DNA of 64,000 nucleotides from NCBI GenBank assembly GCA_964016885.1, contig OZ024743.1:275280001-275344000 (forward strand). The letters are read 5' to 3'. Each line of letters starts with the position of its first letter. The stretch's first letter is position 1. Positions 8,563-58,692 of this stretch are shown one piece after another. The translations under genes were made by a program, and so were the position numbers. The DNA is from Eledone cirrhosa. Taxonomy: Eukaryota. Under the pieces are notes generated by a model that made no database searches, was not told where the DNA came from, and was given only the letters and a program-made list of their open reading frames with translations.

Positions 8563-8768
8563 ATAATTACAACAGTGACATAAACAGGTACTCAAGTTTC
8601 ATTGGGTACTGAGTCCCAATTTCTTGAGCCTGTCATGGAGAAATTGGGGCCCAGAACCCAACGAAACTTGAGCACCTGTTTATGTCACAGTTGTAATTAT
8701 TTATACTAAACTCGTCCTATGGACTGAGTGCACTTACTCTTGGATATTTCCACTTAAATTTTACTTCA

Positions 8769-8769
<1 letters not shown>
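8563..8769 (+). mobile_element. family A fold-back cassette (PLE pLTR-like; putative HHR 3' half)
   Basis: Imperfect ~60-bp inverted arms (8563-8623 / 8638-8700); right arm reads GAAAC-TTGAGCACCTGTTTAT-GTC; ends in (TA)n; duplicated at 10060-10259. Confidence 0.6.
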
Positions 8770-9648
<879 letters not shown>

Positions 9649-9665
9649 ATATATATATATATATA

Positions 9666-9893
9666 TTTAAAAGAATAGAGGTGTAACACACAAGTTATTA
9701 TATATTGGTAAACGGAATAGAATATGCTGACAAATTGTTCACAGTGAAAAATAGTTTAATTAGGAATAAGTGAGAATTAGTAATTGTATTGGTTAGTATT
9801 CAGTTTTGGTTTTAAGTTTTACCGGTTGCGCATTTCTAATGCTTTTCAAAAATAATTTTGAGATAGAACGTCCATGATGTTTGCCCTGATCTG
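9666..9893 (-). mobile_element. family D cassette with variant HHR-like core
   Basis: Minus strand reads TTGAAAA-GCAT-TAGAA-ATGC-GCAA-CCGGT-A; copies at 10621-10848(-) and 21040-21470(+). Confidence 0.6.
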
Positions 9894-10267
9894 ATATATA
9901 TATATACACACACACGCAAACGCATGCGCATAGAAGACAAAATAAAATAAACAAACAAGCAGATAAATAAATAAATATATAGACAGACTGAAAAAAATGG
10001 CGTAGACATACAATGCAACTGGAGGAAACAATAGCGCCACTGACGATGTTGCAGATGTGCAACAGTGACATAAACAGGTACTCAAGTTTCATTGGGTACT
10101 GAGTCCCAATTTCTTGAGCCTGTCATGGAGAAATTGGGCCCAGAACCCAACAAAACTTGAGCACCTGTTTATGTCACTGTTGTAATTATTTATACTAAAC
10201 TCGTCCTGTGGACTGAGTGCACTTACTCTTGGATATTTCTACTTAAATTTTACTTCAGTATATATAA

Positions 10268-10407
10268 GCCAAAAGAGGGAGCAGATCCACTATCCGGTCT
10301 TTGCGATACCAGGATGGACGGGTGATCCTTGAACCTCAGCAGATGGGTGAGGCTTTTCAAAAGCACTTTGCCGGTTTGTTCGGAAGGGGCGGGGAGCCGG
10401 TTGGGGA
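10268..10407 (+). mobile_element. internal fragment of an L1/Tx1-type LINE ORF2
   Basis: Reads TIRSLRYQDGRVILEPQQMGEAFQKHFAGLF, resembling the EN-RT linker; GC-rich island inside a TA tract. Confidence 0.55.
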
Positions 10408-10861
10408 TATATATATGAAAATGTTTAACCTCGACGGCAGAGCTCAAGCCGTTTCGACAGCTATTTCTGGACTAAGAAATAGCAGTCGAAACGGCTTGAG
10501 CTCTGCGTTAAACATTTTCCTATTACCCACTCTACTACCCTAAGTATTGAGTACTCTGGTGCGTTATGGTCCATCTGGTTCCTTACCACACCTCCTTCGT
10601 TATATACATATATATATATATTTAAAAGAATAGAGGTGTAACACACAAGTTATTATATATTGGTAAACGGAATAGAATATGCTGACAAATTGTTCACAGT
10701 GAAAAATAGTTTAATTAGGAATAAGTGAGAATTAGTAATTGTATTGGTTAGTATTCAGTTTGGGTTTTAAGTTTTACCGGTTGCGCATTTTTAATGCTTT
10801 TCAAAAATAATTTTGAGATAGAGCGTCCATGATGTTTGCCCTGATCTGATATATATATATA

Positions 10862-11232
10862 CACACACACGCGCAAACGCATGCGCATAGAAGACAAAAT
10901 AAAATAAACAAACAAGCAGATAAATAAATAAATATATAGACAGACTGAAAAAAATGGCGTAGACATACAATGCAACTGGAGGAAACAATAGCACCACTGA
11001 CGATGTTGCAGATGTGCAACGAAAGATTTATGATAAACTATATATATGTGTCTGTGTCTATATTGTATCTGTGTTATTTTTGACCGTCGGTCAGTCAATA
11101 TCAACATTGAGGACCGAGTAAATTAGGTTACCGATATAAAGGACACAGAAGCGAAAAGCGAAAACCAACCAAACAGTGAGTGTGTTCTGTTATTAATTCT
11201 GGCAATATTACAATATGACCCTCCCCAAGTAT

Positions 11233-12446: not shown

Positions 12447-12517
12447 GGTGCGTTGGTGTAATGGTAGCACAGTGGTCTGGATAACCAAAGATGTGGGTTC
12501 GACTCCCATGTACATCA
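12447..12517 (+). pseudogene. tRNA-like cloverleaf (SINE head), anticodon GGA
   Basis: A box TGGTGTAATGG, B box GGTTCGACTCC, short variable arm; second copy at 12671-12741 shares ~60 bp of downstream sequence. Confidence 0.6.
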
Positions 12518-12845
12518 ATACTCATCTTTTTCCATTCATCTGAGGGTTTTAAACCCCATTATCAGACTAAAATTTCTAATTTCAAACCTGCTCACTGTTT
12601 CAAAACATACTTATTTGTCATTTATACTCGCTAAGAATGTAGCTTCTAATTTGAATGGAAAGAGATGGGTGATGTGTTGGTGTAATGGTAGCACAGTGGT
12701 CTGGATAACCAAAGATGTTGGTTCGACTCACATGTACATCAATACTCATCTTTTTCCATTTATCTGAGGGTTCTAAACCCTATTATTAGACTAAAATTTC
12801 TTTAGTAAAAAAAATATGGTGAAAGCTATTATGTATATATATATA

Positions 12846-15311
12846 CTCTTTTACTCTTTTACCTGTTTCAGCCATCCGGCTGAGGCCTTGCTGGGGCACC
12901 GCCCTTGTTGCTACACATTTTATCTCCAGCCTGTATAGGTTGGCCACTGGTGTAAGAGGGAGTTTGTTGCTGCTGCCCTTAGGTTTCCCTCGTGCCTTGC
13001 TGTGGGCTCATCCGGGATCCTGGATAACAAGGTGCCGAGATGTTTCTTGAAGACATCCACCTCCACGTCATGCAAATCTCTCAGATCCCTCGGCAGCTTG
13101 TTGAAAAGTTGAGGCCCCTTGAATCCCAGGCTATTGCAATACCTGCTCCTTATTCTAGATGTGGAAGACGGGACCTTTGGCACCACACAGTGACCTCCTG
13201 TTCGACGGTTGGTCCAGCTCCCAATGCCAAAGTTTGGTGCTAGTCCCTCCAGGATTTTCCACATGTAGATCACTGCGTATCTCTCCCGTCTTCGCTCCAA
13301 GGAGTAGAGGTTCAGTTCCTTTAGCCTTTCCCAGTAGATTGTCTCCCTCATCTTGGCAATCCTCTTGGTGTAGCTTCGATGGATTGCCTCGAGCTCTGTA
13401 GTTAGTTTGACACTATGGGGTGACCACAACTGGGAGCAGTAGTCCAGGCGGCTTAGGACAAATGTCCTCCATAGTTTCAACATGGTGTCTCGATCTCTTG
13501 TCCGGAAAGTCCTCAAGATCCAGCCAGCGAGTCGTCTGCACATTGTCGCCACTTTCATGATGTGTGAAGAAAAAGATGCATCATCGCTCATGTCTATGCC
13601 CAGGTCTCGTATCGATTTTGACACGGGGGTATCGGTCCCTCCTGGTCCTGTGTAGTTGTGTTGTACTATATTTGTGTTTGGAGGTTTGTATTGTAGGGCT
13701 TGGAATTTGCCAGTATTAAACTGCATGTTGTTTTCTTCCACCCATTTGTATATGGCATCCAGATCCTGCTGTAAAAGGGCAGCGTCAGCCGGGTTTTTGA
13801 TTGCTTGTGCTACCTTAGTGTCATCAGCATAGCTAGTGAGGGATGTTGTTGTATGTACTACAGAGGGCATGTCTGAGAGAGCCACCAAAAACAGTAGTGG
13901 TCCCAGGACTGTCCCCTGGGGCACCCCACTTGTTATTGATGTTTCATTTGAGAGGGCCCCATTTGCTGCTACTGCCTGGCTTCTGTCCCTTAGGAAGCGA
14001 TGCAGCCACTCACCTACTTTTCCAGTTATGCCGAGTCCGTGTAGTTTGTGACATATCATTCCGTGGTCGACCTTGTCAAAGGCCTTCGCAAAGTCAAGAT
14101 ATATCACGTCCACATGTGAGCTGTCTAGTAGTTGTTTCAGTACCCAGTCGTAGTGATGTAGCAGCTGTGTAAGGCAGCTTCTTCCTGTGCGGAAGCCATA
14201 TTGCGTGCTAGTCAGGCGGTCATTTTCCTTGAGGAAGGTGATTAGTTTCTTTCTGACGACTCGCTCCATGACCTTACTGATATGCGACGTCAAGGAGACT
14301 GGCCTATAGTTCTTGGCCTCCGCTCTACTACCTCCTTTATGGATAGGGCATATTGTGCCTTCTTTCAGCTCCCTGGATAGTACACCGCTAGCCAAGGAGC
14401 TTCTGAAGAGCATCTTCAATGGAGTTGCTAAGGCCCGCTTACATATTTTTAAGAGAACTGCTGGGAATCCATCAGGTCCAACAGCCGAGTCTGTTCTAAT
14501 TTCATCAATGGCGTACACCACACCCTCCTCCGTTATGTCTATGTGGCTGATGGTTGCCATTTCTTCATGTAGTGTTGTGGCATCAAAGAACTCCTCTGGC
14601 TTCGTTATTTGCATGTGCCTCAGTGGACATGTGAAGACACTTTTGTACTGTTCGTTCAGTATTTCACATATCTCTTGGGGGTTTTCGGTTAATGAACCGT
14701 CCGTATGGAAGAGTGGCCCAATCTTGCAGTGTACTGAGGCAGTTTCTTTTGCAAATTTAAAGGCCTTAGGGTTTGTTTTAATGTTTTCTATGGCCCTGTT
14801 CTCTTTCTTTGCCCTCTCATTCTCATGGGAAAGCTTGAGTGCAATCTCGGTGCCAAGTAGTGCACATTTCAAATAGGATTCCTTCTTGTTTTTGTTTTGT
14901 TGACTATTCAACTGGTTTGAGAGTTTGGTTCTACGTCTCATAAGGATTTTCCTATCTCTGGGAATAAGATTTTTGTGTCTGTTTGCCGTTTTCTCCGGGA
15001 CAAACTTTTTGCATATAGTGTGTATCGTTGTCATGAAATGTTGAAATTGTGTGTTAGTGTCTTGTGTGGCGGTGTTTTCACTCCATGTTTGCTTCCGGAT
15101 TTCTCTCTTAATCTTTTTCCAGTTAGCCTTGTAGAAGTTAAGGCTGGATAACGTTCCGGAGCTTCTTGGTGATTTGTCTCTGTTGGTTCTCTTGGACCAC
15201 ATATCATTAGCTCTACTAAGTTATGATCAGAGAGAATTGTTGGTGTCACCTTTACATTGTGGATGAGCACTTCCTTGTTTGTAAAACAGAGGTCCAGGAC
15301 ATTTTCGCCTC
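12846..15311 (-). mobile_element. 5'-truncated CR1/L2-group LINE inserted in (TA)n
   Basis: End of the APE domain (ILSDHNLV, 15031-15270) frameshifted onto the RT ORF; 3' UTR stem-loop and GTAAAAGA tail repeats; TA tracts on both sides. Confidence 0.9.
12920..15202 (-). CDS. LINE ORF2 reverse transcriptase (760 aa open)
   Basis: [56 protein letters not shown]. Confidence 0.92.
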
Positions 15312-19971: not shown

Positions 19972-20142
19972 GGGTTTAATCGGGGGTAACCACAGTAAGT
20001 AAAGTACTCAATACATAGCAGAGTATAAATATTTAATATAGAAATGGCTTCAACAAGACTAGTACTGTTTCATTCCAAGGAAATCATCAGGGCTTTCCTG
20101 GTGATTTCCTTGGAATGAAACAGTTCTAGTCCTGTAGAAGCC

Positions 20143-20146
<4 letters not shown>
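19970..20146. mobile_element. family H hairpin cassette with degenerate HHR
   Basis: Arms ~20042-20090 / 20096-20146; minus strand reads CTGATGA-TTTCCTTGGAAT-GAAAC-AGTACTA-GTC. Confidence 0.55.
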
Positions 20147-20389: not shown

Positions 20390-20479
20390 CAAAATTTGTT
20401 TTATAAGTAACGACATAACCATGGAAAACAACCTTAACGGTTGAAAATTCCAGCAAATTTTCAACCGTTAAGGTTGTTT

Positions 20480-21008
20480 TCCATGAAATCCGGCTTTGTG
20501 CAGCTCCCGGCTAACAGTTTTTGTGGAAACTGGGTTCTCGAGGTGGTCATTAAGCTCTGCAGTAATTTGGGGAGCTGTAATTTTGTGATCCTTTCTAACA
20601 ATTCACGTAAGAGTCTGACGGTCCCTATCTGAAAGTTTTGGTTTTCTTCCGGAGATTTGTTTCGACGAGGAGGTTTTTCCCTCTTTCTCAAAGGCTGTCA
20701 TTACTTTCGAGACAGTACTTCTTGATACACCAAACATTTCGACTGTTTTCGTCACGCTAGCGCCTGCCATACGAGCACCAACAATTTGACCTCTTTGAAA
20801 GTCCGATAGATCTGTCATTTTAATGAATTTTAATTACCTTTTTCTGATGATATCTGAAAAGAAACAGCAATTTTAACAAAACCTATTAAGCAACACTAAT
20901 AATAAATAAAAAAAACATAAAAATAAACAAGTTTTTGACGGTTTTATAGATATTTCAAAATTATGATGCTATCATGCTAGGTGTTTCCATTATTTTGTCC
21001 AACCCCTG
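20480..21008 (-). mobile_element. Tc1 transposon 5' half
   Basis: TIR CAGGGGTTGGACAAAATAATGGAAACACC next to TA; HTH sequence MTDLSDFQRGQIVGARMAGASVTKTVEMFGVSRSTVSKV. Confidence 0.88.
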
Positions 21009-23008: not shown

Positions 23009-23898
23009 CTACACCTACTTACTTAAATATACAACGTCCGACCACTTCCAATTTATATAATAGATATCGTCTTTTTTCAATGTATCATGGATTACGTTAC
23101 TGATTACATAAGACAGTGTAACGCAGTTGCAGTCTTCGATCAATTTCTGTGTATATTGTCTATTACGATTTTATTTGATGTATCATATCTACATGTATAT
23201 ATAGTTGCGTATAATATCAATATGCACACTACACATGCTTGCAGAAAACTACCCGAAGGGTGGTTTTTCTGCTAGCATGTGTAGTATAAATAATAAAATT
23301 AGGGAGGATAAGAATGAACACGTTCGTCACAGATTAATAATAATAAAATTAGGATAATTGACAGAGAGAAGACAACGAACGAAAACAAGGCAGAACAAAA
23401 AGGTGACGCCTTAAAGCATTTTGTTTTTCTTTTTAAATAAAAAAGATAAACGAAAGACAGAGAACTCCAAGGTATTCAACCGTTAAGATGGACTTCTGAC
23501 AGTTTCGACCCCTACCGACGGTACTGCTAGTCCACTCGGGGTCACAGCGTCTGACAAACAAACCAAAGCGTTTTCCGTGGAGTTACAGACAAGACAAAAC
23601 AATAACTTACAGCAATTAAGCTATAACAGGTACACATAGAATTTTATGTGACGACTAGAAGGTATTGTGCGTTTTATAGCAACGGTAGTCACATGAGACT
23701 AAAGTAAAGGAGGAAAACAAAAAGAAAGGAAAATAAGGCAAGAAGAAGAAAGTAAGATATCGTGTTAAAAATGTAATCCATTGGAATTATTGGGAGTAGA
23801 AGAATGAACACGTTCGTTGATTCAGTAGATTTGTGGTTTACTAAGGAAGGTACCAATATTAGCACTAAAGGCTTTACAGGGAGTATATAATAAGAACA

Positions 23899-24068
23899 AA
23901 ACGAGGTTTTACATTTAGGTTTTTATTGATTAGACTCAATTACGAACGTTTCGTAGATGGGTGGCTCAGGATCAATATTAGTGTTATAATATGGATACTG
24001 AGCCATCTATCTGTGAAACGTTCGTAACTGAGCCTAATCAATAAAAACTAAAATGTGAAATCTCGTTT
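23899..24068. mobile_element. fold-back cassette with HHR 3' half
   Basis: ~80-bp imperfect arms; right arm has GAA-ACG-TT-CGT-A at 24015-24026; followed by (TA)n. Confidence 0.65.
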
Positions 24069-25291: not shown

Positions 25292-25617
25292 ATAGCCTGG
25301 GCTCTTCATACGGCAAAACCTATAAACAACTTGAAAACATTGAAAGTTCATAAAAAAAACTTTAAATTTGAAAAAAAAAACATTTATTTCCTCGAAAAAA
25401 AATGGACTTTTCTTGAAACAGGGGGCCGGCCAAACACGTGGTGTTGTTTCTTCGACGGCCGGCCCCTGTATTCGAAGAAACAACACCACGCGTTCTGCCG
25501 GCCCCTGTATCAAGAAAAGTAAATCTTTTTCGAGGAAATTATTGGGTTTTTTTTTCCAAATTTTAAGTTTTTTTAGGCACTATTTTAGGCTTTGCCGTCT
25601 GAAGAGCTGAGGTTACC
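25292..25617. mobile_element. palindromic fold-back MITE
   Basis: Ends GCTCTTCATACGGCAAAACCTA / TAGGCTTTGCCGTCTGAAGAGC; self-complementary throughout; the motif CCGGCCCCTGT occurs three times. Confidence 0.65.
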
Positions 25618-35764: not shown

Positions 35765-36569
<805 letters not shown>

Positions 36570-38479: not shown

Positions 38480-38857
38480 ATGAAAGTTAGAGTTAATAAC
38501 TCATACTGAAACCCTGTAATTAACAAGCTCAAAGTATAAATACTGAACATTATAATATATGTAATAAGAAACACAGTAAATCGTGTGTCTAATATTACGA
38601 GGGTTGAAGAACCACATTTGTTTGAAATATTTAACCATGAAGTAGACAGATGATGATGCCCGTGGATTATCTGTTACAAACACACTCAGGGCGAAACAGA
38701 TTAATCCCTAATCTGTCCGAGAGATATAATTGTTATTGAGGCGGTTTGTATAATTTAATTTAATTTTATCATTCTGTCTGTTTCATGGTTAAATATTTCA
38801 AACAAATGTTGTTCTTCAACCCTCGTAATATTAGACACACGATTTACTGTGTTTATT

Positions 38858-40858: not shown

Positions 40859-41050
40859 CGAAGGAAATGTGGTAAGGAACCAGGTGGACCATAACGCACC
40901 AAAGTACTCAATACTTAGGGTAGTAAAGTGGGTAATAGGAACCAGTAAGACCCCATTCTGTGACCTCTTCAGTGACTGGGGATTCTTTTCTTTGTTTTTG
41001 TGCCTCTCCTTTGTTCTGTCCTACGCCAAAAACAAAGAAAAGAATCCCCA

Positions 41051-41093
41051 GTCACTGAAGAGGTCACAGAATGTGTGACGAAAGAACTTTGAC
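41051..41093 (+). ncRNA. minimal type I hammerhead ribozyme (family J, 40955-41245)
   Basis: GTCA-CTGAAGA-G-GTCACA-GAATG-TGTGAC-GAA-AG-AA-CT-T^TGAC; preceded by a ~46-bp inverted arm. Confidence 0.75.
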
Positions 41094-41239
41094 AATATAT
41101 AAACAACCATCTGGTTGTGGAACCAACCAACCAACCGGAAATTTATAAATTCCTAAATTTATAAATTTATTATAATAAATTGAAGTGAAAGCAACTGGTG
41201 CGTGTGTTTCTTATTGGCTACATGACCCTCCCAAAGTAT

Positions 41240-43588
<2,349 letters not shown>

Positions 43589-44134
43589 TGTAGATAAATC
43601 TACCAAGAGTTTACGGTAGTGTCCAATCCGTATGAAGAACTCAATGTATTCCGGATATCATGGAAAGAAGAGATGTAATGAAAATCCAATTTCGGTGAAA
43701 GATAAACGGTATACAGAGTCAAGATAAAATATTAAACAAATAATGAACAAACAATTCCTTATATTAAACAAAAAAAGTTCACTATTTAACGATCGTTTCT
43801 AGGGCACATATGTGTTATAATTGGTATGCATATTTAACAGATCTATGTACAAAATTATACAAAATTATACAAATTATCAAGATTAAATATACATACCTAA
43901 CTCATATATACGCCGTCTTCAGAAATAATTATTTCTGAAGACGGCGTATATATGAGTTAGGTATGTATATTTAATCTTGATAATTTGTATAATTTTGTAT
44001 AATTTTGTACATAGATCTGTTAAATATGCATACCAATTATAACACATATGTGCCCTAGAAACGATCGTTAAATAGTGAACTTTTTTTTGTTTAATATAAG
44101 GAATTGTTTGTTCATTATTTGTTTAATATTTTAT
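43589..44134. mobile_element. family F spacer-less palindrome (~205-bp arms) with HHR-like motif in each arm
   Basis: Centre AGAAATAA|TTATTTCT at 43928/43929; TATTT-CTGAAGA..long stem II..GAA-ACGATCGT-T-AAATA at 43930-44074. Confidence 0.8.
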
Positions 44135-44142
44135 ATATATAC

Positions 44143-44233
<91 letters not shown>

Positions 44234-44242
44234 CATATATAC

Positions 44243-44331
<89 letters not shown>

Positions 44332-44332
44332 C

Positions 44333-44782
<450 letters not shown>

Positions 44783-44806
44783 ATATATATATATACATAT
44801 ATATAC

Positions 44807-44843
<37 letters not shown>

Positions 44844-44888
44844 CATATATACATATACATATATATATATATATATACATATATATAC

Positions 44889-44969
<81 letters not shown>

Positions 44970-44972
<3 letters not shown>

Positions 44973-45154
44973 CGAAGGAAATGTGGTAAGGAACCAGGTG
45001 GACCATAACGCACCAAAGTACTCAATACTTAGGGTAGTAGAGTGGGAACAAGTAAGACCCCGACGGCTGAGCTCAAGCCGTTTCGACGGCTAATTCTGGA
45101 CTGAATTAGCCGTCGAAACGGCTTGAGCTCAGCCGTCGGGGTCTTACTTGTTCC
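44970..45154. mobile_element. family B copy with perfect 52-bp-arm hairpin
   Basis: Arms 45045-45096 / 45103-45154, loop TGGACT. Confidence 0.85.
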
Positions 45155-45169
45155 TATATATATATATAT

Positions 45170-48100
45170 GGTTTAGCTCTCTGGCTTCAAACCGAAGTTC
45201 CTGATTAATAGAGAATACCAACAACAAAAACAAGAAACATAATAAAAGTAACAACCATAATGGTAGAAATAACAGTAACAACAACAATAACGGTGGAGAA
45301 AACAACAAGAATACATCTAACAATCACAGCAACAATACATCTAGCAATCATAACAATAATAATAATGCTCATGATAGGAACAACAACAACCACCATAATA
45401 ACAATAATAGCAACACACACAACTATTACGATAGATATAATGACAACCCCTTAGAGAAACTATTCTTCAACCCAGCTGACAAAACATATAAGATGGGTAA
45501 TATCTATCCTACGATACCACAACAAATAGATGACGAGACAGAGGCACAGTTCACCATAGCTAGTAATAAGATTAGACAAATATTAGACCGGTATACTAAG
45601 AGACAGAGCAGACCAGAGGTCCAACAACTTGAGAGGAAACCTGTAAAAGGCTTGGTTAGCCTCAAGCAGCGCACAAGGGATGGTGAGGTAGTATGTCTAC
45701 CCACGGATAAGTCTGGTAGGATGTCAATAGACAGCATGCCGAACTACATCAAGGCTATGCAACCCCACATCACCAACACGAGCGAAATTGCACAGCAAAT
45801 ACATGATGGGAGAGAGAAAATCCTCAACGCTCACATGATGATGTGGACCGACATCCTAAAGCCAAGCAGACGCACTGCCAACAATTTCCAGGCGTCTAGC
45901 AATGGCATACCACCCTTGTATGGGCTCCGCAAAGACCACAAGACAGTCGACGACCCGACAACAGGACCACCAACAAGACCTGTATGCGGAGCAAATATAG
46001 CTAGCAACTACAGGATCTCCTACTTCCTCTCAATGGTTATACGCCCCATAATCAAGATGTCCCCAGATGCATGTGACAGTACAGAGGACCTCCTCAGCAG
46101 AATCAGTGAGTGAAACAAAAACAGGAACCTATCCAACTGCATAATAGGCAGTATGGATGTGGCATCACTGTACCCATCCATTAACATTGATTTTGCTGTG
46201 GGAAAATGTGTGGAGATGATCATTGATAGTGAGGTGGAGTTCTGCGACGTCGACACAGGCGAACTGGGCCTCCTACTTAGACTTACCTACGACACTGACT
46301 ACCTAGACAGCCATGACCTTAGACGTTTCTGCCCCAGTAGACCCATAAGAGGTAGAACCCCCACCATAACCTCAATGGCAAAAAAGACTCCCATGGGGAG
46401 ATGGATTGGGTGGACCAAAGCTATACGGACCCCCCAAAACAATGATCAGGTAAGAAAAATGGTCGCACATGCAATAGGGGCTAGTATCAAAACTACCCTA
46501 AAGGGCCACATATTCAAGTTCAACGAGAAGATCTACACCCAAAATGAGGGAGCAGCCATTGGCGTCAGCATAGCTGGTGACGTTGCCAACCTTTTTATGG
46601 TATGGTGGGAAAGGAGACTCAAAGATCTCCTTGATGAGAGCTCCATAGACCTCATCATGTACTCTCGTTACGTAGACGACATCAATATAGTAATAAGGAC
46701 ATCCCCACAAGAGAGCACTAACAAGTTTGATTTAGAACGTAGCACAATGGAAAGCATCCAGCAGATAGCTAATTCCATACACCAGAGTATAACTGTAACT
46801 ATCGACTACCATTCCAAACACCCTAACAATAGACTACCTGTATTACACACGGAACTCTGGATTAACATTATAGACGAGAGAGACCAAATTCTCCACTCAC
46901 ACTATGCTAAACCCATGGCCTCCAAATACCTGATATTCAAAAACTCAGCAATGTCCAGTAGTGCTAAGTTTAATATTCTGATCGCAGACTTGGTACGAGT
47001 GATGAAGAACGTGTCCCGCATGTGCGACCCAACAGAAATGGAAAGACACATCCAACACTTCATCAACCGCATGCAGTTCTCTGGCAACAACCAATGAGAC
47101 AGAATCAGAGTATACGAAGTAGCCACGGAGAAGTATAAGACCCTCATAGAACTGGACATGAAAGGAATTTGCCCATTATACAGGAGCAAATCATGGAATA
47201 GCTTAGATAGGATTAGACATAAGATAGGGAAAGCCACCTCATGGTACGACAACCAGAGATACCAGAGTGTCATGTTTGTGGACGCTACCCCTGGAGGGAC
47301 ATTAGCTAACCAGTGTAGAAAGGCCCTGAGAAAGACCTACTTAAAGATTAAGGTGGTAGAAAAGCCAGAACCCATCATAAATCACTGATCAGCAAAACCT
47401 ACCCTTTTAAGAAAACCCACTGTACTAATAGGAAATGTTAAAGTAAACCCCCGGATAAACTGTAAAACTAGAAACGTAGTCTATAGCATAAGATGTACAG
47501 GTGGTACTTGCAGAAACATGACAACAACATACATAGGCGAGACAGCTCGTAGCATAGGTGAAAGGATAGACAACACTGGGGGGAACTAAAAGAACGAAAA
47601 AGGTTCAGTACTATACGAACATGCCAGACAACAACACGACGGTAACATAGACAACATAGAAATTAGAATAATATCTAAACATAGAAATGACCCAGCAGAT
47701 AGGCAAATTAGAGAGGCCAGCGAAATAGAACTTAGAAGGCCAAGGCTAAACAGAAAAAATGAATGGAATAACAACAGCACCCAAACAAACTAAGAGCAGT
47801 ATAAATAAATAAATACATACACAAGCATAATAACAACAAACACATATAAACACACACTAGTAAACTAAGATAGAATACAATAACCAATACACAGTCACCC
47901 AAACACGAACACACATCAAACAAAACACTATACACACACGCAAACGCATGCGCAGAGAAGACAAAAAATAAATAAATAAATAAACAGACTAAATAAAGAT
48001 GGCGTAGGCATACAATACAACGGTAGGAAACATAATAGCACCACTGACGATGTTGCAGATGTGCAACGAAAGAACTTTGTTAGACTATATATATTTGTTT

Positions 48101-48232
48101 GTGTCTATATTTTTTACCCTTGGTCAATCAATGGTAACATTGAGGACCGAATAAATTAAATTAACCGATATAAAGGACGCAGAAGCGAAAACCAACCAAA
48201 CAGTGAGTGTGTTCTGTTATTAATTCTGGCAA
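45170..48232 (+). mobile_element. Penelope-like retroelement (RT + C-terminal GIY-YIG; possibly Nematis clade), decayed
   Basis: PTDKSG, PPLYGLRKDHK, PPTRPVCG, SMDVASLYPSI, YSRYVDD; then CKTRNVVYSIRC..YIGETARS..YEHARQQH..RQIREA..LNRKNEW; two in-frame TGA plus frameshifts; HHR-like motif in the 3' pLTR at 48040-48081. Confidence 0.92.
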
Positions 48233-48250
48233 TACATAGATACAACTCAA

Positions 48251-48341
<91 letters not shown>

Positions 48342-54444: not shown

Positions 54445-54920
54445 CATATATACATATCCATACATACACATACACACAAACACACACACATGTATATATA
54501 TATATATATATACACACACACATAATCATACATATATACACACGTACATACAAACACATACATACACACATATATACACGCATACATACGCACACACATA
54601 TATAGGTATATGTACATACGCACACACACAATTAATTATAAGAAAAAATAATAATAAAAAATAAAAATAAAAAAACAATGGACAACCATATAATGCAATT
54701 GACCGTCACATAAAAATTAAAATAACTATTACATAACTATTAAACTCTGTAACCTACATAGAGCACTCTTTTTTCCTGGACCTTTCCGACGGAATTACTT
54801 CTTTATACAGCTCCAACCGGGATTGATTGAAGCATATTCTATATTACATATATGATTGGCACTTTCCAGCCCGATTAGTTGAGCACTCTACAGTTTTCAG
54901 GAATTTAACCAACATACACC

Positions 54921-56275
54921 ATGGACCTTTATGAATTGGATTATTCAATCAAAAATATACCTACTCCTTCCAACACAACTTATACCAAACTGCTTATAGA
55001 TAAAATCGAACATGTCGTTAAAAGAATGAGATGGAAGGCAATGGTTTGCGATGGACTATTCAGTGCTGATACAAATGATTGTTTTGACATAAAATCCCGT
55101 AAATACCCACCTAGAATTAAAGACATGGCCAACTTCGAATTAGACCTTGTTAATTTAATTAGTGATATCAAATTTCGTAAGTACAATAATAATTTTCAAA
55201 TTAAACTTTCTAACAATATTTCTAATTTTAAAAATTCTACAAACACCTTTGTTCTTTCTGATAAAACTAAAAATCTCTTTGAAGTTAATAGTATTTTGTA
55301 TAACCAACTTTTAACTAATAGTATCACCAACAAATATCAATTAATTAATAATAACACCTACAATACTATTAATAAAGAAGCTAAAGAACTAGCTAGTTCT
55401 TTAAAAATAGACAACCAGATTGAAAGCCTAGCTAAACGTAAAGCATATATTACCCTTAAAGACCATAAATTAGACTTTACTAATCGACCTAGCTGTAGAC
55501 TGATTAACCCGGCTAAATCCGAAGTTGGCCTTGCGAGTAAAAAAATCTTAAGAAAAATAATTTTCCAAATTAGAACTAAGACTGACTTATCACAATGGTT
55601 AAATACATCCTCTGTTATTTCTTGGTTTAATAATATACAAGGTAAAAATAAGTGTAGATTTACCCAATTTGATATTGTTGATTTTTACCCCTCTATTACT
55701 GTTTCCTTATTAACTAAAGCCTTAGATTTTGCAAGATCCTTCATTAATATTTCAAAATTAGAAGAAGACATTATCTTTCATGCTAGGAAAACTCTACTCT
55801 TTACTAATGAAAGTATTTGGGTTAAAAAGTCAAACCCTGAAAACTCTTTTGATGTTGCAATGGGTTCATATGACAGTGTGGATGTGTGACTTAGTAGGAT
55901 TATTCCTTCTCCACACCCTTAAAGAGAAATTTCCTTCCCATAATATCGGTTTATACCGTGACGGCGGATTGGCAGTTTCTCATACCACCAACGGCCATAA
56001 CCTTGATAAATTCCGTAAAGATTTAATCAATACTTTTTTTCTAATCTAAACCTTAAAATTACTATAGATACGAACCTTACCAATGCTAACTTTCTTGACA
56101 TTAATCTTGATCTACTTACTGCCTCTTTTAAACCTTATCATAAACCTAACGAAAATCTTAGGTATATACACAAAGAGTTTTGCCATCCCCCTATAGTTTA
56201 AAAAAATCTTATTCCCAATATTAGCCGTAGGATTTCTACCTTATCTTCGTCTCTAGACATTTTTAACAAAGCTAA
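54921..56275 (+). pseudogene. PLE reverse transcriptase, frameshifted and truncated
   Basis: YSIKNIP, RMRWKA, ITLKDHK, CRLINPAKS, QFDIVDFYPSI, FDVAMGSYD; the catalytic YRDDGL reads YRDGGL. Confidence 0.88.
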
Positions 56276-58339: not shown

Positions 58340-58684
58340 CTCTCTATCTCTGTATATATGTGTGTGTGTGTAAAAAGTAAACAAAAATAACAAAGCAAAC
58401 GACACAATACAATGAAGAAATTTAGTTTAATGCTTGAATAGAAAAAGAGTCTTAACTTTTTGGACACTAGTCCTTCATCAGAAGATAGAATGGGAAATAA
58501 AAGATGCAATAGGAAGATAGAGTGAAAAGAAGTAGGAAAGGAAAAAATTGAGAAAAAAGACACACGTGCATATTCAGTCAGCCATTTTGTAAATATATAT
58601 ATATGCGTGTGTGTAATAACGAAAATAAAACAAAAGTTGAAGATAGGTTCTTGAACTATCTTCAACTTTTGTTTTATTTTCGTT
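58340..58684 (-). mobile_element. old PLE-type cassette with degenerate HHR and terminal hairpin
   Basis: Minus strand reads TCTT-CTGATGA-A-GGAC-TAGT-GTCC-AAAAAGTT-AAGA (~58448-58484); 29-bp-arm hairpin at 58618-58684. Confidence 0.55.
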
Positions 58685-58692
58685 GTTCAATA

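What the first reader, a model, noticed from the sequence alone, without database searches (positions are those of the whole stretch)
45045..45154. Fold-back hairpins are centred on hammerhead stem II: a ribozyme-guided snap-back signature
Seen: the perfect 52-bp-arm hairpin reads GACGGCTAATTC-TGGACT-GAATTAGCCGTC (stem II), GAA, ACGGCT-TGAGCTC-AGCCGT (stem III), C^GGGG. This is an HHR whose CUGANGA half is replaced by an inverted copy of its 3' half. The same apex recurs in the diverged copy at 8806-8915, and the same geometry appears in unrelated families at 23899-24068 and 8563-8700. Other breakpoints fall at or in the ribozyme: 43928 just 5' of stem I, 38651 in the core, 10063 at the end of stem II, and 40955 in loop II. 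Inference: nascent cDNA folds back on stem II and self-primes the second strand, which would explain PLE inverted ends mechanistically.
Basis: partly seen in the sequence, partly recalled or inferred. Interest (0 to 1): 0.75.

Follow-up and report, generated by a model that had tools for sequence, protein, structure and literature searches.

The report
Twin-primed Penelope stubs mark transcript starts
This DNA hairpin is one of many thousands of stub-sized, head-to-head insertions of a Penelope-type jumping gene, likely made when two separately primed DNA copies run off the element's predicted RNA start (which in this family lies inside a predicted hammerhead ribozyme) and are joined, rather than by one copy folding back on the ribozyme.

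Summary
The hairpin is real: exact 52-bp arms and a 6-nt loop. It is a stub of a Hydra-clade Penelope-like element with at least 14,302 copies. Read-through parents give the true hammerhead: a U3-A8 core and a long loop II. Arm 5' ends pile up at one A inside loop II (159 of 196 within -4..+6). In three other families the pile-up lies 7, 68 and about 55-80 nt upstream of the ribozyme core, so it does not follow stem II. It follows Initiator-like or YY1-like motifs and is often preceded by an extra G (26 of 40 vs 22 of 89). Either arm can be the longer (17 vs 16 of 70 hairpins), and head-to-head inserts of two different families exist, which a single fold-back cannot make. Best reading: priming on both target strands, run-off at the transcript 5' end, then end-joining. 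A minority (8 of 100) stop at the predicted ribozyme cut. No RNA data were available. This scan reached the same reading before on other DNA of this genome.

The parts
44974..45102 (-). Tailed arm of a family-B Hydra-type PLE stub (element sense is the minus strand); its 5' end at 45102 is the A where most family arms stop, 41 nt before the predicted cleavage site
44974..45044 (-). 71-nt 'tail' present on one arm only, abutting (TA)n; in tandem parents it continues in frame into the RT-endonuclease ORF
45103..45154 (+). Tailless inverted arm: starts 35 nt before the predicted cleavage site and ends at the fixed inner end next to (TA)n
45057..45092 (-). 3' half of the predicted hammerhead (stem II 3' strand, GAAA, stem III, GUC, stem I 3' strand); predicted cut between 45062 and 45061; core and 5' strands absent here, present in parents
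44132..44973 (.). (TA)n-rich target microsatellite on the left; a short (TA)n run lies on the right at 45155-45172
8807..8995 (+). Family-B stub of another subfamily; duplicated locally at 10417-10598
40860..40954 (-). Family-B tailed arm that ends exactly at the predicted cleavage site, then joins family-D sequence (40955-41244)
43593..44131 (.). Family-E head-to-head stub; junction at 43928, the A of an Initiator-like pentamer 7 nt before the core
35830..36467 (.). Family-H head-to-head stub that reads through the family's usual stop 68 nt before the core
8565..8766 (+). Family-C stub; the tailless arm passes core and stem I, the tailed arm starts in the core
23900..24067 (.). Family-G stub; both arms end in loop II of a long-stem-II hammerhead

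Best explanation
The hairpin is a stub insertion of a Hydra-clade Penelope-like retrotransposon, likely built from two separately primed cDNAs, one on each strand of a cut (TA)n target, that likely ran off the predicted transcript start and were joined head to head. Shown: the two arms have two fixed 3' ends (with and without the tail), variable 5' ends that stop at one position, either arm may be longer, and some inserts pair two families. Inferred: (1) the mRNA starts at an Initiator-like A that in family B lies inside hammerhead loop II, so the 5' copy carries only half a ribozyme; (2) RT primes internally at two sites just downstream, as shown in vitro for an anole PLE; (3) priming in the 5' repeat gives 50-140-nt cDNAs, and priming in the 3' repeat gives the long copies; (4) cDNA ends gain untemplated C or A runs, or are trimmed, and are joined bluntly or through 1-6 nt of microhomology; (5) a minority of templates had been cut by the ribozyme.
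For: Wall: 159 of 196 truncated B arms end within -4..+6 of one A, and only 1 ends 5-40 nt upstream; 21 read through. E: 21 of 21 (and 22 of 22 truncated among 100 listed, by eye). H: 51 of 71, mode 68 nt before the core; the unselected first 30 loci show the same. D: 43 of 76 within a 23-nt zone next to a YY1-like motif. The modes of B, E and H are A's in TTAGT/TCAGT, TCATT and TCACT; background is 21 of 700 positions for the loose motif. Extra G before the wall A: 31 of 45 vs 22 of 89 elsewhere (p 2e-6); conservative recount 26 of 40 (p 2e-5); B alone 12 of 16 vs 10 of 46. An untemplated G is read as a cap signature for L1 (PMC6425141, passages). Symmetry: tailed arm longer in 17, tailless longer in 16, about equal in 37 of 70. 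Mirror-image junctions 41/35 and 35/41 both occur, as do loopless palindromes and A-run|T-run fillers. Two-family inserts in (TA)n: L275, L038, L040. The same wall appears in arms joined directly to (TA)n. The anole PLE cuts and extends both strands, starts RT at two sites that bound the tail, and has its hammerhead at the ORF start (PMC11167929, parts 1-2 read). Penelope has an internal promoter in the pLTR (PMC2377424, passages).
Against: No RNA 5' end was observed, so 'transcript start' and 'cap' are inferred. In (TA)n-adjacent arms read by eye the base before the A was G 5, C 6, A 2, so the G excess is weaker there. Untemplated G and T also occur at R2 junctions, where no cap is invoked in the passage seen (PMC13000458). 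At the B wall a T cannot be scored as untemplated. The Initiator motif was chosen after seeing the data; its consensus and the YY1 motif are recalled. D has a broad zone and no Initiator; C showed no sharp wall (27 arms, one reference). The arms share a subfamily in about 44 of 48 hairpins, which fits one RNA, cis preference or snap-back equally. The window copy alone (41/35, 6-nt loop) is geometrically compatible with fold-back. Later deletion in one arm could mimic some asymmetry. In vitro, RT start sites did not differ between strands. Hammerhead covariation is weak: 1 compensatory pair, not above shuffles.
Confidence: 0.7

Rival explanations
1. One reading: one cDNA folds back on hammerhead stem II and self-primes the second arm.
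For: The B and G apices lie in the stem II/loop II region; both arms usually share a subfamily and 29 of 70 junctions overlap; self-priming was proposed in PMC3846280.
Against: The paired 'stem II' is not the parent's stem. Walls in E, H and D lie outside stem II. The tailless arm is longer in 16 of 70, loopless palindromes occur, and two-family inserts exist. The model gives no reason for the fixed inner end.
Confidence: 0.04
2. Run-off at the RNA 5' end is right, but many inverted arms come from fold-back of the run-off cDNA through short microhomology, with later deletions making the other asymmetries.
For: Recurrent junctions with 4-nt inverted microhomology, including the window copy; subfamily-concordant arms.
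Against: The mirror-image junction is equally common; A-run|T-run fillers and two-family inserts need two cDNAs; only 1 private variant mirrored in both arms was seen in 48 hairpins.
Confidence: 0.12
3. Two primings are right, but the wall is an RT block (bound protein or RNA structure) or a nuclease cut at an AT-rich site, not a transcript start.
For: The B and E walls border U-rich runs; the anole endonuclease prefers ATT; the G excess is modest.
Against: The H wall is not at a ribozyme or a U run; the mode is an Initiator-like A in three families; almost no ends lie just upstream although 11 of 99 tailed arms read through far beyond; extra G.
Confidence: 0.11
4. A ready-made hairpin mini-element (MITE- or SINE-like master) is amplified, and apices differ by deletion.
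For: Very high copy number and identical outer ends.
Against: Long autonomous copies have the same two outer ends; the wall recurs in several subfamilies with their own bases; junctions carry different untemplated inserts (27 of 70).
Confidence: 0.03

Closest known systems
Hydra clade of C-terminal EN+ Penelope-like elements (PMC8557442; section 11 and passages read)
   Same: Single ORF with DKT, CxCX5C linker, GIY-YIG, no CCHH, CxxC and CxH around the conserved E and N; (TA)n targets; hammerhead in the pLTR; inverted 5'-truncated copy plus a tail on one end.
   Different: The tail is about 70-80 nt rather than 30-40; the motif reads RWR for RWK; the core is U3-A8; most copies are 100-200-bp stubs with a sharp 5' stop.
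PAc Poseidon in vitro system (PMC11167929; parts 1-2 of 4 read)
   Same: Hammerhead at the ORF start, two internal RT start sites bounding the tail, both target strands cut and extended.
   Different: The text read does not explain inverted ends or link 5' ends to a transcript start.
Self-priming hypothesis for Penelope inverted junctions (PMC3846280; passages)
   Same: Head-to-head palindromic junctions; an Initiator-like TCACT noted in a pLTR.
   Different: It invokes self-priming on an antisense template; the data here favour two primings on sense RNA.
PLE hammerheads, including the U3-A8 variant (PMC4209133; passages)
   Same: Type I motif in the pLTR, U3-A8 covariation, extra base after position 9, opposite-strand pairs.
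   Different: Family B has a full 6-bp stem III and a loop II of about 39 nt that holds the predicted transcript start.
L1 twin priming (search listing only; mechanism recalled)
   Same: Both target strands prime reverse transcription.
   Different: L1 primings copy adjacent, non-overlapping parts of one RNA; here both copy the same region toward the 5' end, sometimes from two RNAs.

Membership tests
Hydra-clade PLE | Single ORF with RT and C-terminal GIY-YIG, short element | tested here: met
   786-aa open frame in L057 (6279-8636) directly after the hammerhead, with RT and GIY-YIG-type motifs read from the sequence; Pfam gave no hit
Hydra-clade PLE | DKT in place of DKG; CxCX5C linker; no CCHH; CxxC and CxH around E and N | tested here: met
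   Read from the translation against section 11 of PMC8557442
Hydra-clade PLE | RWK motif | tested here: inconclusive
   RWR at the matching place
Hydra-clade PLE | Insertion into (TA)n | tested here: met
Hydra-clade PLE | Placement in the RT tree with reference Hydra proteins | not tested
   No reference set was fetched
Type I hammerhead ribozyme | Core C3/U3-UGAN-G8/A8-A9, GAAA, UH | tested here: met
   U3-A8 core in most parents, with G10.1-C11.1, GAAA and GUC; two parents can be read as C3 with A8; the variant is published
Type I hammerhead ribozyme | Three stems, with covariation | tested here: inconclusive
   94.4% of cells paired vs 12-55% when slid; only 1 compensatory pair, not above shuffles; constrained fold -22.6 vs free -25.0 kcal/mol
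Type I hammerhead ribozyme | Self-cleavage | not testable with these tools
   Indirect only: 8 of 100 tailed arms end within -3..+1 of the predicted cut (counted by eye)
Snap-back (cis self-primed) product | Second arm never extends beyond the first; loop of at least 3 nt; one template | tested here: not met
   Tailless arm longer in 16 of 70; loopless junctions; two-family inserts
Non-LTR retrozyme | Tandem protein-free units, each with a complete hammerhead | tested here: not met
   Stubs are head-to-head with half ribozymes; parents encode RT

The most novel reading that the evidence does not exclude
PLE inverted ends are made by a two-ended reaction that primes both target strands from two fixed RNA sites, so thousands of genomic stubs map each family's transcription start and, in a minority, in vivo ribozyme cleavage. 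Family B puts its promoter inside hammerhead loop II, so that the mRNA 5' end carries a disarmed half-ribozyme while the 3' repeat carries a whole one.
Probability: 0.55. Interest if true: 0.68.

Novelty: new variant of a known kind. Interest (0 to 1): 0.5.

Why it matters
How PLEs form their inverted ends is called open in PMC8557442 and PMC11167929, and the one published idea I found is self-priming. These stubs give a countable in vivo record that argues for two primings and predicts exact RNA 5' ends that one CAGE or RACE experiment can test. The element class and its architecture are known, and the scan has already noted this reading elsewhere in this genome.

Tried and rejected
The Rfam scan listed only microsatellite and miRNA-like hits among the 150 of 287 matches shown, none a hammerhead. 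A CTGANGA search near the arm gave 23 hits, none an intact family-B ribozyme by inspection. A twister reading of the arm did not fit by inspection. RNA look-up: no RNA holder listed. Contig laying cannot show starts. A second wall at -45 was rejected: those calls come from microhomology or T runs. Family C (27 arms) and family G (25 hits, mostly read-through) gave no clear wall. The family at 38651 was not surveyed, so that breakpoint stays a single observation. Pfam had no hit for the family-B ORF. Searches for a printed two-priming or transcript-start explanation found none; subscription papers and supplements were not seen.

Full report
Observation. The hairpin at 45045-45154 has exact 52-bp arms and a 6-nt loop. 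The left arm continues for 71 nt (44974-45044) that the right arm lacks, and both outer ends abut (TA)n. A search of the own genome with this stretch gave 75 matches, most of them similar hairpins with differing apices. A tail pattern has 14,302 exact hits and a second has 23,122. Independent short-read contigs hold the family and joints at 45098-45102.

The parent. I fetched 80 regions covering 95 of the first 100 listed hits, all on contig C1; with 4 incidental copies they gave 99 tailed arms, of which 11 read far upstream. These parents show the whole hammerhead: 5-bp stem I, core TTGAGAA or TTGATAA, G-C, a 6-bp stem II, about 39 nt of loop II, GAAA, 6-bp stem III and GUC. Pairing is 94% across 9 parents, but covariation is weak. 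In a tandem parent the tail runs in frame into a 786-aa RT-endonuclease ORF with Hydra-clade motifs, so the ribozyme and tail sit at the 5' end of the transcription unit, as in the anole PLE (PMC11167929, parts 1-2).

Where arms stop. Of 217 family-B arms scored, 21 read through and 196 were truncated; 159 of these end within -4..+6 of one A, 41 nt before the predicted cut, and one ends 5-40 nt upstream. This count leaves out arms too short to hold the anchor. The stop is the same in arms joined directly to (TA)n with no inverted partner. Family E (43928): 22 of 100 listed arms are truncated, all within about 7 nt before the core or in it (by eye; 21 of 21 by script). Family H: 51 of 71 truncated arms, mode 68 nt before the core. 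Family D: 43 of 76 in a zone about 55-80 nt before the core. The extra E, H and D regions were chosen as truncated copies; the unselected first 30 loci of each show the same pattern. Family C gave no sharp wall, family G mostly reads through, and the family at 38651 was not surveyed. So breakpoints are not uniform, but they do not track stem II.

What the walls are. The modes in B, E and H are A's in TTAGT/TCAGT, TCATT and TCACT, which resemble the Initiator (consensus recalled; TCACT is called Inr-like in a PLE pLTR in PMC3846280). The loose motif covers 21 of 700 parent positions. D's zone lies just before a YY1-like motif (recalled). Among junctions not explained by the partner arm or by TA repeats, the base before the wall A is G in 31 of 45 vs 22 of 89 at internal ends, and 26 of 40 after dropping five D cases where G may be a parent base. 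An untemplated G is read as a cap copy for L1 (PMC6425141), but R2 junctions also gain G and T (PMC13000458), and the (TA)n-adjacent set gave G 5, C 6, A 2 (by eye). I infer run-off at the RNA 5' end, likely capped. No RNA run was listed.

One cDNA or two. Fold-back of a tailed first strand requires the tailless arm to be no longer than the tailed arm. In 70 hairpins the tailed arm was longer in 17, the tailless arm in 16 and 37 were about equal; one is counted twice and two are mis-scored by indels. The window's junction (41/35) has its mirror image (35/41) in other copies. Loopless palindromes and A-run|T-run fillers occur, and 27 of 70 junctions have inserted bases. L275 is a family-B tailed arm joined head to head to a family-D tailless arm within (TA)n; L038 and L040 join a B tailed arm to another family. 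Against this, the arms share a subfamily in about 44 of 48 hairpins, which does not separate the models, and only one private variant was mirrored in both arms. Two primings fit the in vitro finding that both strands are cut and extended and that two RT start sites bound the tail.

What remains of the ribozyme link. With an anchor inside the tail, 8 of 100 tailed arms end within -3..+1 of the predicted cut, against 13 in the 37 flanking positions (by eye; Poisson p about 5e-4); some of these may reflect a short palindrome there. The window's 40954 junction is such a case.

Comparison and verdict. The architecture is the known PLE one (PMC8557442, passages and section 11), and self-priming has been proposed. 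Four searches found no printed account of two primings with run-off at the transcript start; the library lacks most subscription papers and I read no supplements. I stated this reading before opening the scan's notes; three of them reach it on other DNA of this genome, which is not independent support. Interest 0.5.

Noticed in passing
window 45173-48252: A separate, decayed PLE (family A) directly after the hairpin: two ORF pieces (45205-47097, weak RVT_1 hit, asparagine-rich start) and a minimal hammerhead near 48043. The family-B protein does not match it by tblastn.
   Followed up: partly
window 54762-56270: Another Hydra-like PLE ORF in pieces, 40-49% identical to the family-B protein.
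   Followed up: partly
window 8570-11020: Local tandem duplication of three PLE stubs with a 4-nt microhomology junction at 10063.
   Followed up: yes
window 40860-41244: Three-part insert: B arm ending at its predicted cut, an inverted D piece starting in D's loop II, then a D tailless arm; likely a template jump. L033 and L045 show B-D joins in the same region of D.
   Followed up: partly
window 9195-9645: Family-X hairpin with a hammerhead core variant beginning with T that overlaps a YY1-like motif; L015 has both arms stopping at its stem I.
   Followed up: no
L164-L193, L303: Family E is very young: most listed copies are identical over the shown stretch, and tandem units are spaced about 6 kb apart, longer than typical Hydra elements; a good candidate for functional tests.
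   Followed up: no
L134-L163: Family C hammerhead appears to have an extra base in the core and, in one subfamily, a palindromic stem III loop.
   Followed up: no
L057:6279-6480: The frame stays open through the tail region for about 68 codons before the first in-frame ATG; an out-of-frame ATG lies upstream, so an intron or unusual initiation is possible.
   Followed up: no
L100 and L069: Other families or relatives also carry a T-starting (U3-A8 type) core.
   Followed up: no
window 12920-15220 (-): 766-aa LINE-type RT frame (RVT_1, E 4e-30).
   Followed up: no
window 12447-12517 and 12671-12741: Two tRNA-like matches in a direct repeat.
   Followed up: no
window 20043-20145, 20420-20485, 23212-23301, 25353-25574, 58615-58687: Further short palindromes, not assigned to families.
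   Followed up: no
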